Of a stretch of 64,000 nt of DNA, positions 5,546-8,202 are shown one piece after another. A model generated the notes under the pieces. That model searched no databases. It worked only from the letters and a program-made list of their open reading frames with translations, and had not been told where the DNA came from. Both the position numbers and the translations under genes were made by a program. This DNA comes from an uncultured delta proteobacterium. Lineage in GTDB: Bacteria > Desulfobacterota > Syntrophia > Syntrophales > UBA2185. The stretch's first letter is position 1, and the number at the start of each line of letters is the position of its first letter. Location: the NCBI GenBank assembly GCA_963729715.1, contig CAVSPA010000005.1, positions 352,001 to 416,000 of the forward strand, in the 5' to 3' direction.

Positions 5546-5836
5546 TTATGGGCGGTACTCATAGGCTTCGTATTCTGTTTTCTGTCCGAGCAGGGCGTCA
5601 ATCTGATCCTGGATCTTCGCCCTCTCCTTGCTGGACTGCCAGGCCCTCCAGGCGGAAAGACTATCCCATGTGCTGATAACGAGATACTCGTTCTGTCTAT
5701 CCACATTTTTCAGAGATTCCCCGGACACGTAACCCGGCTCTTTCATGCTGAGTGACCTGAGTCGCATCACAAGTTCCTTCAATTGAGCTGCCTTATCCGC
5801 GGCTACCTTTCTTTTAATGAGAATTTTGACTGCCAT
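5546..5836 (-). CDS. Antibiotic biosynthesis monooxygenase (ABM) family protein
   Basis: 96 aa, EPGYVSGE and YLVISTWDS..AW..W pattern; GGAGG SD. Confidence 0.85.
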   Translation of the reverse strand: MAVKILIKRKVAADKAAQLKELVMRLRSLSMKEPGYVSGESLKNVDRQNEYLVISTWDSLSAWRAWQSSKERAKIQDQIDALLGQKTEYEAYEYRP

Positions 5837-5915
5837 TTTCGACCTCCTACATTACTTTGTGGGTTGTCTTTCCGGGCTTAGATCTGAATTCTACCAACCG
5901 CGTTTATCTGAATTC

Positions 5916-5944
5916 ATGATAAGCGTGTTAGGGAACACTGTCAA
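5916..5944 (-). promoter_or_regulatory. Putative sigma70 promoter of the ABM gene, with palindrome in the spacer
   Basis: Minus strand TTGACA-N17-TATCAT; GTGTT-N4-AACAC at 5925-5938. Confidence 0.55.
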
Positions 5945-6181
5945 GTCTTTTTGTGGCGTCGTTTCATTTGAAAATAGCCAAACACAATGATGCAACTCAA
6001 TGGAAGTGAAGGTAATTTAACTGTCTGCGCTAATTATTAAGCAGAGAGTGCTCCACGTGATTGTCCCTGCGGTGAAATGTCCCGGAGTGGCTGATAAATA
6101 TAGCCGCATATAATATTCTTCCCAACGGGACCAAGTATATCATCGTTTATCCCCATCTCAATTAATCTTCATCAGCTCGAA

Positions 6182-6499
6182 TTACTCGATTGGATATCCG
6201 GCATTCTTCCAAGCCACCACACCTCCGCGAAGGACCTTGACATTTCCGTATCCTTTTTTCAGGAAGTGCTCTGCCCGACCGGCAGACGTTTTTTCCCTTG
6301 GTCAGGCTCAATAGAGGATAATTTCCTGGTCTTTTGAATATTGCGGAAGCCGGGAATAGAATTCGCTAAGCGAGATGGATCCTTCAAGATTAACCCTTCT
6401 ATATTCCTCGTCGTCCTTATAGGCGCAGACCAGAATGGCCTCCCCTGATTTTACTTTCAGATAAGCTTCTTCCGGCGATATCCGCATGGCTTCCGTCAC
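6182..6499 (-). CDS. Rhodanese-like selenoprotein, 105 aa, with two in-frame UGA codons (U-A-U)
   Basis: ORF-track 63-aa fragment continues through TGA 6310-6308 and TGA 6304-6302 as IILY-U-A-U-PREKTSAGRAEHFLKKGYGNVKVLRGGVVAWKNAGYPIE*, completing a rhodanese domain; SECIS-like hairpin follows. Confidence 0.85.
6270..6286 (-). promoter_or_regulatory. Putative bacterial SECIS element
   Basis: TCTGCC-GGTCG-GGCAGA; G-led GGUC loop begins 21 nt after the second UGA and 27 nt after the first. Confidence 0.7.
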
Positions 6500-6597
6500 G
6501 ACATTCCTCCTGTTTCACATATCGCATTTTTTTACCCGCATGATCGACGAAAACGATTCACGGTTATAATTATCACGGATGTCCCTTCAACTGCACC

Positions 6598-8202
6598 TTA
6601 AGTATTGTCGTCATCGAATGGATGGAGATCTACCCAATTTCGGCGTAGGGTGGCGTCATGGCACACTTCTCCCTTCTTCCCTACAAGTTCGCTGTGTTCA
6701 AGCTTTCTGAGAGCCATGTTGTCGGTCCTCACTTCCGCCAGCGTACGCTTACCATCCTTGAGACGACCAATGACTGTGGCCCGCTCCGCTTGTCCGTCTT
6801 GATCGTAGCGAATTATGTACGACTCAATCGTCAGAATACCGTCAGCCCGTTCGACGGGAGCGGGAATGGCCTCCGCGTCGATTGCCTTCTGAACAGCTGA
6901 ATCATCTCGCTCCTCCCATGGATGGCTGGGAGGTTCCGCTCCATAGATGCCGATCGCATGTTTAGAGTTGTACCAGCCGTTGGCCGTCACCATGGCCTTC
7001 AGGTGGCGATCACGACGAATGCGCTCTACTATGGAGGCAATGGCGTGCATCGTATAGTTATTGCCGGGTCCGCCAAACTGGGCAAGCCCACCGGTGACCG
7101 TAAGGTCCCTCGGATCATCTTCCGAAATACCGATGGCCTGACGGGAGATCTCTACAGCCGATGGAAAGCAGCTATAGAGATCAAAGACGTCGATGTCGGA
7201 AAGCGAAAGACCCGACTGCTTGAGAGCAAGCCGTGCCGCTTCTGTTATGGGAGGGGAATCATAGAGCCTGGGCCTCTCTGTCACATGCCAGACATTGTTT
7301 AGTTCCGCTCCTCCCATCGGATATACCCATTTGGAGCGGTCGATACCGAACGCAGTAGCATCAGCGTCATTTGTCATGATAAGCGCTGCCGACTGATCTA
7401 CGTTGATATTGGCCACAATGCGGACTGTATACGGATAGACAACGTAGCGATTTTGCGGGGCAGCTATTGTCAACTCCTCCGCCTTGTATTTTTTCCGAGT
7501 CCAGGCATAGGGATTCCCAAAGGCGACCTGGGAAAAGCTCTCATACCGATGCCCCATATAGAGCCGGTGTTCCCTGATACTCCTGCCCGATCGATAGCGA
7601 AGGGATGTTTCGAAGAAAGGATACATGAACTGCGGCAGAAAGAGATCGTAGGCTTCTTCAATGGAATTGTTGACTTCATGATACCTATCGCCCGCTCTCT
7701 TGAGCATTTCTTCCTCATGTTCGCACCCCAAGCGGAGAAGTGTATCAAAGTTGGCGGGCAGATTCTTTTCCCTTAGATGCCGAAACGTCACATTGTCATG
7801 CCAATCCAGAACTGTCTCGCCCTTGGAGGCCTTGTACATCGAATATATCGCTTCGGCGCCTGTGAGTAATACGGCCCTTCTCCCTCCCGCAGCAATATCT
7901 CGCGCAAGGCGATTTACCATCGTTTGAGGTGAATCGCCTCCGATCTGCGAATAAATCACGTTCTTAGGCCTAATGCCCAACGACCCGCTTACAGCCAGCG
8001 GCAGACGCTCATCGTCCCGGGAAAAGCTGTTGATCACGCAGACCGTGTCAATGATAGATTTTAAGGCATCACATCCGGCGTCTCTCATGGCGTCAAGGCT
8101 CGCCCTGACCATTAGGCCAAGGGGGTCAAGAATGGGATTTGCATCTTTTTGTTGAGTGTGCTGTGCAGCGCCAATGAGAATGGGAACGGGTCTCGTCTTC
8201 AT
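6598..8202 (-). CDS. Non-canonical thiolase-like protein (acetyl-CoA acetyltransferase superfamily)
   Basis: PILIGAAQ, IGGDSPQ, VDQSAALIM, DLYSCFP, TVTGGL..FGGPGNNY; start taken at MKTRPV. Confidence 0.8.
   Translation of the reverse strand: MKTRPVPILIGAAQHTQQKDANPILDPLGLMVRASLDAMRDAGCDALKSIIDTVCVINSFSRDDERLPLAVSGSLGIRPKNVIYSQIGGDSPQTMVNRLARDIAAGGRRAVLLTGAEAIYSMYKASKGETVLDWHDNVTFRHLREKNLPANFDTLLRLGCEHEEEMLKRAGDRYHEVNNSIEEAYDLFLPQFMYPFFETSLRYRSGRSIREHRLYMGHRYESFSQVAFGNPYAWTRKKYKAEELTIAAPQNRYVVYPYTVRIVANINVDQSAALIMTNDADATAFGIDRSKWVYPMGGAELNNVWHVTERPRLYDSPPITEAARLALKQSGLSLSDIDVFDLYSCFPSAVEISRQAIGISEDDPRDLTVTGGLAQFGGPGNNYTMHAIASIVERIRRDRHLKAMVTANGWYNSKHAIGIYGAEPPSHPWEERDDSAVQKAIDAEAIPAPVERADGILTIESYIIRYDQDGQAERATVIGRLKDGKRTLAEVRTDNMALRKLEHSELVGKKGEVCHDATLRRNWVDLHPFDDDNT

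What the first reader, a model, noticed from the sequence alone, without database searches (positions are those of the whole stretch)
6182..6499. Rhodanese-like protein with a double-selenocysteine U-x-U active-site loop
Seen: TAT TGA GCC TGA CCA at the rhodanese active-site position, with an intact domain C-terminus after both stops. A single GGUC-loop hairpin lies 27 and 21 nt downstream of the two UGAs. Known: bacterial SECIS elements sit just 3' of the UGA, and Sec-containing rhodanese-like proteins exist. Inference: both UGAs are Sec and share one SECIS, giving a possible diselenide motif. Gene callers would truncate this to 63 aa.
Basis: partly seen in the sequence, partly recalled or inferred. 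Interest (0 to 1): 0.78.

Follow-up and report, generated by a model that had tools for sequence, protein, structure and literature searches.

The report
Rhodanese gene with two selenocysteine codons
A small sulfur-transfer (rhodanese-type) gene carries two in-frame TGA "stop" codons, two positions apart in its active-site loop, that are almost certainly read as selenocysteine with the help of one RNA hairpin; the gene is real and is cut short by gene callers, but this U-x-U type of rhodanese was already noted in 2007.

Summary
On the minus strand, window 6182-6499 encodes a 105-residue single-domain rhodanese. It has in-frame TGA at codons 64 and 66 (motif Y-U-A-U-P) and one 6-bp hairpin with a GGUCG loop, 21 and 27 nt after the two TGAs.

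The genome has SelA, SelB, SelD and tRNA-Sec, and TGA is its commonest ordinary stop. Of 30 orthologues read from the same order, 12 have U-A-U and 18 have C-A-U. One database homologue has C-A-C. The part after both TGAs is under purifying selection (dN/dS 0.12).

In 59 C-x-U or U-x-U genes from two searches, the hairpin sits at exactly the same distance, with compensatory changes in its stem. So both TGAs are very probably selenocysteine served by one SECIS.

It is not new in kind:
- The C-x-U rhodanese selenoprotein is curated as NCBIfam NF041203 "rhodanese_LYCAU".
- A U-x-U form was reported in 2007 (PMC1976440).

This clade scores below the NF041203 cut-off and has an extra invariant Cys25. 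A diselenide and the biochemical role remain untested.

The parts
6182..6499 (-). Complete coding sequence of a 105-residue single-domain rhodanese-like selenoprotein (GTG start, two in-frame TGA, TAA stop at 6182-6184)
   Evidence: Read-through translation. Pfam PF00581 at 38.4 bits. AF2 pLDDT 94.0. dN/dS is 0.148 before TGA-1 and 0.12 after TGA-2 among 7 U-A-U orthologues.
6506..6511 (-). Shine-Dalgarno-like AGGAGG, 6 nt before the GTG start (6497-6499)
   Evidence: Read directly from the sequence. The orthologue L024 has ATG at the aligned position.
6308..6310 (-). TGA-1, codon 64: selenocysteine at the canonical catalytic-Cys position of the rhodanese loop
   Evidence: Aligns with the catalytic Cys of solved rhodaneses (6mxv alignment). 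TGC or TGT in 18 of 30 orthologues and TGA in 12 of 30.
6302..6304 (-). TGA-2, codon 66: the family-defining selenocysteine of the C-x-U / U-x-U motif
   Evidence: TGA in 30 of 30 orthologues and in all 59 C-x-U/U-x-U genes checked. Cys in P0049.
6270..6286 (-). SECIS hairpin: 6-bp stem UCUGCC/GGCAGA with 5-nt loop GGUCG. The loop starts 21 nt after TGA-2 and 27 nt after TGA-1.
   Evidence: -10.3 kcal/mol. It is the only helix RNAalifold predicts on 30 orthologues. Alignment pair 33-45 is U-A in 21 and C-G in 9 sequences, with none broken. The register is the same in 59 genes, and 58 of them are fully paired.
6261..6297 (-). Possible lower stem around the hairpin in this window only (6293-6297 pairing with 6261-6265)
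   Evidence: Single-sequence fold at -14.6 kcal/mol, z -1.47. The consensus fold does not predict it. Weak.

Best explanation
The locus is one intact gene for a cytoplasmic, 105-residue, single-domain rhodanese-like selenoprotein with no signal peptide. It has two selenocysteines in its active-site loop (Y-U64-A-U66-P-R-E-K-T-S).

Both UGA codons are recoded by the SelB/tRNA-Sec system through a single SECIS hairpin in the coding sequence. The hairpin's apical loop lies 21 nt after the second UGA and 27 nt after the first.

Sec66 is the ancestral, family-defining selenocysteine of the C-x-U rhodanese selenoproteins. Sec64 is a later Cys-to-Sec replacement at the canonical catalytic-Cys position, and this replacement appears in at least three separate clades.

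Inferred mechanism (not shown): residue 64 takes up a sulfane sulfur or selenium atom as in ordinary rhodaneses. The chalcogen two residues away resolves the adduct by forming an intraloop Se-Se bond (Se-S in the C-x-U forms). The protein would then work as a redox-cycling carrier or reductase of sulfur or selenium species rather than as a plain transferase.
For: Shown:
- Two in-frame TGAs with an open frame beyond them.
- Rhodanese family and fold.
- Column 64 is the catalytic-Cys column, and the loop is two residues longer than in solved rhodaneses.
- Sec machinery is complete: SelA 521.9 bits, SelB 387.7 bits (cut-off 242.25), SelD 390.3 bits with its own in-frame TGA, tRNA-Sec 76.2 bits with anticodon tca.
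- TGA is an ordinary stop here. It ends 406 of 987 open frames of at least 400 codons.
- Of 30 orthologues read, 12 are U-A-U and 18 are C-A-U. Of the 46 best rows of the order-wide search, 14 have 2 TGA and 32 have 1 TGA.
- dN/dS downstream of both TGAs is 0.12, against 0.148 upstream.
- Hairpin: 92.8% of cells are paired, 0 of 500 shuffles reach its covariation score, and pair 33-45 is U-A in 21 and C-G in 9 sequences.
- In 59 distinct genes (20 U-x-U, 39 C-x-U) the 5-bp core lies at nt 17-21 and 27-31 after the second UGA. It is fully paired in 58. Loop position 2 is G and position 3 is G or U in all 59. Several different stem sequences occur.
- The hairpin meets the bSECIS constraints quoted in PMC13188914: loop of 3-9 nt, stem of 4-16 bp, G in the first two loop positions, 16-37 nt spacing, MFE at or below -7.5.
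- U at column 64 needs 3 changes on the tree, in all bootstrap trees. There is no shift of the hairpin in any U-x-U gene.

Context that fits a redox role:
- A U-A-U domain fused to an eight-CxxCH multihaem cytochrome.
- A pyridine nucleotide-disulfide oxidoreductase gene next to a C-A-U lipoprotein form.
Against: - There is no direct evidence of selenium in the protein, and none that the first UGA is decoded by SelB rather than by occasional near-cognate read-through.
- Rfam found nothing in 5800-6900 at E up to 10.
- The fold of the 91-nt region is not better than shuffles (z -1.13). It prefers a different, long-range helix that buries the second UGA. That helix is 88.8% paired across orthologues.
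- Starred branches of the tree do not by themselves exclude a single origin of U at column 64.
- At the second column only 1 of 3 full-length non-Sec homologues has Cys. The others have Trp and Ser.
- The diselenide and the redox role are inference. I could not measure distances in the model because no coordinates were available.
- The window's neighbours are uninformative: a thiolase-like protein, DUF362, ABM and SucC.
Confidence: 0.85

Rival explanations
1. Only the second UGA (the ancestral one) is selenocysteine. The first UGA is a real stop or a leaky stop, so the main product in this clade is the 63-residue N-terminal fragment, and the full-length protein is a minor or selenium-dependent by-product.
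For: The SECIS spacing of 21 nt is the ancestral one for the second UGA. All 39 C-x-U genes have it. The 27 nt spacing is seen only for first UGAs of U-x-U genes. Recoding of a UGA is incomplete even in E. coli: 30-40% according to the abstract of PMC4513850 as seen in a search listing.
Against: The first UGA sits exactly on the catalytic-Cys column, and Cys occupies that column in 18 of 30 orthologues. TGA-1 is kept in all 9 rows of the window's clade across two genera. It also occurs in 20 distinct genes in several lineages. The sequence after it is under the same purifying selection as the sequence before it. A spacing of 27 nt lies inside the 16-37 nt range of the bSECIS model.
Confidence: 0.08
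2. The gene is a decaying pseudogene, or the TGAs are sequencing or assembly errors of TGC/TGT.
For: Each TGA is one base change from a Cys codon. One orthologue (L027) has a frame disturbance near its 3' end, and one (L030) contains N.
Against: The same two TGAs occur in 12 independent assemblies read here and in 8 further genes of the phylum. dN/dS is 0.12-0.15 on both sides of the TGAs. There are 55 database clusters of 62-65 aa.
Confidence: 0.02
3. TGA is a sense codon in this organism (an alternative genetic code reading it as Trp or Gly), not a SECIS-directed selenocysteine codon.
For: One homologue has Trp at the second column (P0004).
Against: TGA ends 406 of 987 long open frames and is the commonest stop. 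The SelA and SelB frames contain no internal stop. Sec machinery and tRNA-Sec are present.
Confidence: 0.01
4. The hairpin at 6270-6286 is not a SECIS. It is an intrinsic terminator for plus-strand transcription, or a by-product of the Ser-Ala-Gly-Arg-Ala codons.
For: Read on the plus strand, the stem is followed by a T-run and is listed as terminator-like. Four of its 6 pairs show no change on both sides.
Against: The T-run (an A-run on the coding strand, from the R-E-K-T codons) occurs only in the window's clade. The hairpin is kept in all 59 genes with other flanks. Synonymous third positions covary: U-A in 21 and C-G in 9 sequences, with none broken. Across the wider family, three stem positions change in a compensatory way. 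No plus-strand gene ends here.
Confidence: 0.03

Closest known systems
U-x-U form of the 'rhodanese-related sulfurtransferase' selenoprotein, reported from the deltaproteobacterial symbionts of Olavius algarvensis (Zhang & Gladyshev 2007, PMC1976440; passages read)
   Same: [quoted passage not shown] It comes from the same broad bacterial group (former Deltaproteobacteria).
   Different: Their sequences are in a figure that is not held here, and no supplement could be read. Identity of subfamily is therefore inferred, not tested. That paper gives one sentence and says nothing in the passages I read about how one SECIS serves two UGAs, about recurrence, or about function.
[quoted passage not shown]
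   Same: It is the best NCBIfam match. It shares the [LF]-Y-C/U-x-U loop two residues longer than canonical rhodaneses, and the same SECIS hairpin in the same register. U-x-U versions also occur among true members (L070-L072, L076, L077, 145-157 bits).
   Different: The window's protein scores 69.5 bits against a cut-off of 115. All 22 relatives tested score 49-71 bits. This clade has an invariant Cys in L-V-C-A-Y (C25, in 31 of 31 rows). The one true member I read (L079) has I-D-V-R at the matching place. The review lists the family with one Sec only.
TsoB, rhodanese/DsbD fusion-like selenoprotein (NF045694; 'form 5', motif UxxxxU, 2 Sec; PMC13188914 table)
   Same: A rhodanese-domain selenoprotein listed with a two-Sec UxxxxU motif.
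   Different: It is a fusion protein of about 570 residues, with the Sec residues five apart. The window's protein scores 15.8 bits against a cut-off of 805.
Rhodanese-like selenoproteins forms 1, 2 and 4 (UxxS / UxxG; PMC13188914 table)
   Same: If, as their motifs suggest, they carry Sec at the canonical catalytic-Cys position, they resemble Sec64 here. I did not test this.
   Different: They have a single Sec and lack the +2 Sec.
GlpE and other single-domain rhodaneses with solved structures (1gmx, 6mxv, 3nhv)
   Same: The fold is the same (TMq 0.75-0.80). The catalytic column aligns.
   Different: They have Cys rather than Sec. Their active-site loop is two residues shorter (gap in the 6mxv alignment). 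They have no second chalcogen in the loop.

Membership tests
Bacterial SECIS-dependent selenoprotein | In-frame UGA aligned with Cys in homologues | tested here: met
   Column 64: Cys codon in 18 of 30 orthologues and TGA in 12. Column 66: TGA in 30 of 30. Among the 3 full-length non-Sec homologues it is Cys in P0049, Trp in P0004 and Ser in P0026.
Bacterial SECIS-dependent selenoprotein | Stem-loop after the UGA that fits the bSECIS model (loop 3-9 nt, upper stem 4-16 bp, G in the first two loop positions, 16-37 nt from UGA to loop, MFE at or below -7.5 kcal/mol; as quoted in PMC13188914) | tested here: met
   6-bp stem, loop GGUCG, spacing 21 and 27 nt, -10.3 kcal/mol. Conserved and covarying. 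No Rfam family matched.
Bacterial SECIS-dependent selenoprotein | selA, selB, selC and selD present in the genome | tested here: met
   All are above the curated cut-offs. ARAGORN calls a tRNA-SeC with anticodon tca.
Bacterial SECIS-dependent selenoprotein | Selenium demonstrated in the protein | not testable with these tools
   Needs 75Se labelling or mass spectrometry.
Rhodanese-like domain (Pfam PF00581) | Score above the gathering threshold, and a rhodanese fold | tested here: met
   38.4 bits against 22.2. AF2 pLDDT 94.0. Foldseek: 82 PDB matches at E up to 0.001, with the top hits all rhodaneses.
Rhodanese-like domain (Pfam PF00581) | Nucleophile at the start of the active-site loop after the central beta-strand | tested here: met
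   Codon 64 aligns with the loop Cys of 6mxv. The loop is 2 residues longer. Here the nucleophile would be Sec.
NCBIfam NF041203 rhodanese_LYCAU (C-x-U rhodanese selenoprotein, 'form 3') | Score at or above the curated cut-off of 115 bits | tested here: not met
   69.5 bits, or 56.1 bits in the six-frame genome search. All 22 tested relatives score 49.2-70.8 bits. Two other genes of the same genome do pass, at 162 and 122.2 bits.
NCBIfam NF041203 rhodanese_LYCAU (C-x-U rhodanese selenoprotein, 'form 3') | Y-C-x-U loop motif with the SECIS loop 21 nt after the UGA | tested here: met
   The +2 Sec and the hairpin register are identical. The Cys of the motif is itself Sec here, as it is in 5 true members.
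U-x-U rhodanese-related sulfurtransferase form (PMC1976440) | Two Sec in a U-x-U motif in a rhodanese-related protein | tested here: met
   for the motif. for the published description.
U-x-U rhodanese-related sulfurtransferase form (PMC1976440) | Sequence relationship to the published Olavius-symbiont sequences | not testable with these tools
   The figure is not held and no supplement was readable.
TsoB (NF045694) | Score at or above 805 bits; rhodanese/DsbD fusion; UxxxxU | tested here: not met
   15.8 bits. The protein is a single domain of 105 residues, and the motif is U-x-U.

The most novel reading that the evidence does not exclude
A single bacterial SECIS hairpin routinely programmes two selenocysteine insertions six nucleotides apart. 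That would show natural SelB/SECIS spacing tolerance of at least 21-27 nt on one mRNA.

The resulting U-x-U loop would form a natural intraloop diselenide. In this Syntrophales-type clade it would work together with a third invariant Cys (C25, in place of the Asp of the usual D-V-R motif) as a three-chalcogen redox relay. The clade would then be a distinct, uncurated subfamily of redox-cycling rhodaneses acting on sulfur or selenium species.
Probability: 0.4. Interest if true: 0.55.

Novelty: new member of a known kind. Interest (0 to 1): 0.3.

Why it matters
For annotation: this gene and its relatives are cut to about 63 residues by gene callers. In the protein database 55 of 72 homologues are that short. 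A whole clade of double-Sec proteins is therefore missing its active site in public records. The curated model NF041203 would not rescue it, because the clade scores below the cut-off.

For biology: U-x-U rhodaneses are a natural test case for two questions that have not been tested experimentally, as far as the papers I could search show.
- How far from a UGA can one bacterial SECIS act, and can it act twice in quick succession?
- Are natural diselenide redox centres used in bacteria?

The repeated Cys-to-Sec change at the catalytic position, and the fusions to multihaem cytochromes and neighbouring disulfide reductases, point to sulfur or selenium redox chemistry in anaerobes. None of this changes the fact that the kind is already in print.

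Tried and rejected
- Rfam scan of 5800-6900 at E up to 10: no match. Bacterial SECIS elements of this type are evidently not captured there, so I relied on comparative analysis.
- Single-sequence folding of the 91-nt and 71-nt regions gave a long-range helix, GCCUGACC with GGUCGGGC, that competes with the hairpin. Across 30 orthologues it is 88.8% paired. It shows almost no compensatory change (1 cell; 23 of 500 shuffles reach its covariation score), and pairing is lost where the Pro codon is absent. I treat it as a possible alternative conformer, not as the SECIS.
- Alternative genetic code: rejected.
- Plus-strand terminator: judged coincidental.
- Gene neighbourhood in the window (thiolase-like TLP1, DUF362, ABM, SucC): no functional lead.
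- I wanted Se-Se and Cys25 distances from the AF2 model, but the tools give no coordinates, so the geometry is untested.
- I tried to see the 2007 paper's sequences, but no supplement is held.
- My first regular expression for the hairpin census was too narrow and caught 31 genes. I redid it and caught 60 rows, which are 59 distinct genes.
- Literature searches: 'selenocysteine + rhodanese + selenoproteome + SECIS' gave 20 papers. 'UxU' + selenocysteine as whole words gave 3 papers, of which only the 2007 paper is relevant. 'SECIS / two UGA codons / SelB / bacterial' gave listings only, and none of the listed titles or abstracts addressed two adjacent bacterial UGAs on one SECIS.
- Not run: sequencing-run search, read laying, complex prediction and protein atlas. 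None would decide Sec insertion.

Full report
**What is in the sequence.** The feature lies on the minus strand.

- A GTG at 6497-6499 is preceded by AGGAGG (6506-6511) six nt upstream and opens a frame that table 11 closes after 63 codons (ORF 6308-6499).
- Read with TGA as a residue, the frame continues. TGA-1 is codon 64 (6308-6310), GCC is codon 65, and TGA-2 is codon 66 (6302-6304). Then come 39 more sense codons and TAA at 6182-6184.
- The 105-residue product matches Pfam Rhodanese (38.4 bits, cut-off 22.2).
- An AlphaFold2 model built on 31 aligned relatives is confident (pLDDT 94.0, pTM 0.88).
- Its best PDB neighbours are all rhodaneses: GlpE 1gmx at TMq 0.80, and 6mxv, 3tp9 and 3nhv at 0.75-0.80.
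- In the sequence alignment to the solved rhodanese 6mxv, codon 64 falls on the loop cysteine after the central strand. The window's loop is two residues longer.

**The hairpin.** After TGA-2 come 15 nt, then UCUGCC (6281-6286), the loop GGUCG (6276-6280) and GGCAGA (6270-6275).

- On its own the hairpin folds at -10.3 kcal/mol, and 4 of 200 shuffles fold as well.
- The loop starts 21 nt after TGA-2 and 27 nt after TGA-1.
- These values satisfy the published consensus for bacterial SECIS elements as quoted in the 2026 review PMC13188914: loop 3-9 nt, upper stem 4-16 bp, a G in the first two loop positions usually followed by G or U, 16-37 nt between UGA and loop, MFE at or below -7.5 kcal/mol (passages read).
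- Rfam found nothing here.
- Folding the larger region alone is not better than shuffles (z -1.13) and picks a competing long-range helix. The single sequence therefore does not settle the matter.

**The organism can make selenoproteins and uses TGA as a stop.** The genome that holds the window has:

- SelA (521.9 bits);
- SelB (387.7 bits, cut-off 242.25);
- SelD (390.3 bits, itself with one in-frame TGA);
- a tRNA-Sec (76.2 bits), which ARAGORN calls tRNA-SeC with anticodon tca.

TGA ends 406 of the 987 open frames of at least 400 codons, more than TAA (354) or TAG (227). A reassigned code is therefore excluded.

**Comparative evidence for the two codons.**

- A protein search with the read-through product returned 72 homologues. 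Of these, 55 are 62-65 aa long and cover only the first 57-62% of the query. I did not inspect the sequences of those 55.
- Of the 13 I read, eight (P0065-P0072) end in Y-C-A or Y-C-G directly before their stop.
- Three are full length and show C-A-C (P0049), C-A-W (P0004) and C-E-S (P0026) at the three loop positions.
- A six-frame search of 201 genomes of the same order found 140 genomes with some rhodanese match. Among the 46 best rows (E up to 1e-24), 14 have two in-frame TGAs and 32 have one.
- I read the 30 loci that were returned. 12 have U-A-U (L020-L027, L030, L032, L039, L045) and 18 have C-A-U.
- The second TGA is therefore universal, and the first alternates with TGC or TGT. This is the classical Cys/Sec signature at the catalytic column.
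- Among seven U-A-U genes (L020-L026; L027 and L030 were left out because of a 3' frame disturbance and N's), pooled pairwise dN/dS is 0.148 for the 58 codons before TGA-1 and 0.12 for the 38 codons after TGA-2. The part behind both 'stops' is thus translated and under selection.

**Comparative evidence for the hairpin.**

- On the 30-sequence, gap-free DNA alignment, RNAalifold predicts exactly one helix, the 5-bp core of this hairpin.
- Counting pairs for the 6-bp version gives 92.8% of cells paired, against 29-58% when the partner is slid by 1-3 columns. None of 500 shuffles reaches the observed covariation score.
- The middle pair joins two synonymous third positions. It is U-A in 21 sequences and C-G in 9, and is never broken.
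- I then widened the set with the curated family NF041203. I searched 301 genomes of the phylum and fetched 20 best loci plus 9 stretches chosen because they showed two TGAs.
- In all, 59 distinct genes (20 U-x-U, 39 C-x-U; one gene appears in two loci) carry a 5-bp stem at nt 17-21 and 27-31 after the second UGA. It is fully paired in 58 and has one mismatch in L033.
- All 59 have a 5-nt loop whose second base is G and whose third is G or U.
- The stem sequence differs between clades: GUGCC/GGCAC in 25, CUGCC/GGCAG in 20, CCGCC/GGCGG in 7, and others.
- No U-x-U gene has a shifted or additional hairpin.

This is the basis for saying that one SECIS serves both UGAs. It is an inference from natural variation, not a measurement.

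**History of the first Sec.** I built a maximum-likelihood tree of 33 domain sequences with the two trait columns masked (30 loci plus P0004, P0026 and P0049).

- The window falls in a clade of nine U-A-U genes from two genera of one family (support 100/99).
- U at column 64 needs three changes on the tree, in all bootstrap trees (5-95% range 3-3).
- The strongly supported branches alone would still allow one origin.
- U-x-U also occurs in true NF041203 members from other families (L070-L072, L076, L077).

The Cys-to-Sec switch at the catalytic position is therefore recurrent, or at least repeatedly toggled.

**What it is called in the literature and databases.**

- The best NCBIfam match is NF041203, 'rhodanese_LYCAU, rhodanese-related (seleno)protein'. 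The window's protein scores 69.5 bits against a cut-off of 115.
- All 22 relatives I tested score 49.2-70.8 bits.
- Two other genes of the same genome pass, at 162 and 122.2 bits.
[quoted passage not shown] It also lists a two-Sec rhodanese fusion, TsoB (UxxxxU) (table passages).
- I could see neither the figure nor any supplement. That their form is the C-x-U family is my inference.
- A whole-word search for 'UxU' with 'selenocysteine' found three papers, and only this one is relevant.
- Two earlier reports of this scan on other genomes reached the same verdict. They are not independent evidence.

**How this clade differs.** All 31 aligned sequences have an invariant cysteine at position 25 in L-V-C-A-Y. 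The one true NF041203 member I read in full (L079) has I-D-V-R at the corresponding place. This, and other N-terminal differences, probably explains the sub-threshold score.

The window's protein has no signal peptide. Several relatives have a signal or lipoprotein leader.

**Function.** No function is shown. The neighbours in the window are a thiolase-like protein, DUF362, an ABM-domain protein and SucC, and they give no lead. Context elsewhere points to redox chemistry:

- a U-A-U NF041203 domain (155.3 bits) is fused to a multihaem cytochrome with eight CxxCH motifs;
- a C-A-U lipoprotein form is followed by a pyridine nucleotide-disulfide oxidoreductase gene;
- C-A-U forms are also fused to a patatin-like domain.

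My working mechanism is inferred. The residue at 64 accepts a sulfane sulfur or selenium, and the Sec at 66 resolves it through an intraloop Se-Se bond (Se-S in the C-x-U forms). Cys25 is a possible third partner in this clade.

**Verdict.** The novelty is low: this is a new, sub-threshold member of a known kind. Its practical value is in correcting truncated annotations, and it is a good natural system for testing one-SECIS, two-UGA decoding.

Noticed in passing
Own genome outside the window: G000:C6:159738-160109 (+), G000:C5:63364-63714 (-), G000:C3:226608-226931 (+): Three more rhodanese genes with one in-frame TGA in a Y-C-x-U loop and a hairpin in the same register. The first two pass the NF041203 cut-off, at 162 and 122.2 bits. 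The genome therefore carries four C-x-U/U-x-U rhodanese selenoprotein genes.
   Followed up: partly
L079:288-2393 (-) (G244:C20). Similar long frames with two TGAs at G346:C368, G488:C239 and G281:C27.: A U-A-U NF041203 rhodanese domain (155.3 bits) is fused in one frame, after a signal-like leader, to a multihaem cytochrome c with eight CxxCH motifs (Pfam Multi-haem_cyto; weak likeness to hydrazine dehydrogenase). Four such frames of 546-575 aa occur in one genus. I only read L079 in full. I did not search the literature for this fusion.
   Followed up: partly
L033:424-1836 (-); also L041 and L049: A C-A-U rhodanese continues without a stop into a patatin-like phospholipase domain (Pfam Patatin, 86.7 bits, for L033). 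L041 and L049 show the same continuation in their translations.
   Followed up: partly
L048:1243-3306 (+): A lipoprotein-type C-A-U rhodanese is followed closely by a class-I pyridine nucleotide-disulfide oxidoreductase gene (Pyr_redox_2, 195 bits). This could be a reductase partner.
   Followed up: no
window 6297-6307 with 6273-6280 (minus strand): An alternative 8-bp helix, GCCUGACC with GGUCGGGC, would bury TGA-2 and the SECIS loop. It is the minimum-energy fold of the single sequence and is 88.8% paired across 30 orthologues, but without real covariation. It may be a pre-ribosome conformer or a by-product of the codons.
   Followed up: partly
window 6270-6296 (+ strand): Read on the plus strand, the SECIS stem followed by a T-run scores as an intrinsic-terminator-like site. 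I judge this a coincidence of the R-E-K-T codons, which occur only in the window's clade.
   Followed up: partly
G000:C12:74564-75493 (+) (L010): The genome's SelD has its own in-frame TGA at codon 11 of the matched stretch, in the context G-A-G-U-A-C-K. By eye I saw a small downstream hairpin roughly 16 nt after the UGA. The fold program did not predict that hairpin, and I did not analyse it further.
   Followed up: no
P0004 (database protein, 127 aa): This full-length homologue has Trp (C-A-W) at the second Sec column. TGG is one base from TGA, so this may be a Sec-to-Trp loss or a miscall. P0026 has C-E-S.
   Followed up: no
Alignment A2, position 25 of the window protein (window 6425-6427, minus strand): An invariant Cys in L-V-C-A-Y in 31 of 31 clade members. 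The one bona fide NF041203 member I read (L079) has Asp there, in I-D-V-R.
   Followed up: partly
L027 (G131:C23) and L030 (G029:C86): In L027 the last ~15 residues of the U-A-U orthologue go out of register, which suggests a frameshift or assembly error. L030 contains N's in the N-terminal part. Both were left out of the dN/dS count and of alignment A2.
   Followed up: no
window 5916-5944 (-): A strong sigma-70-like site (TTGACA, 17 nt, TATCAT; 11 of 12 matches) lies upstream of the ABM-domain gene at 5546-5836. That gene is therefore probably transcribed separately from the rhodanese gene.
   Followed up: no
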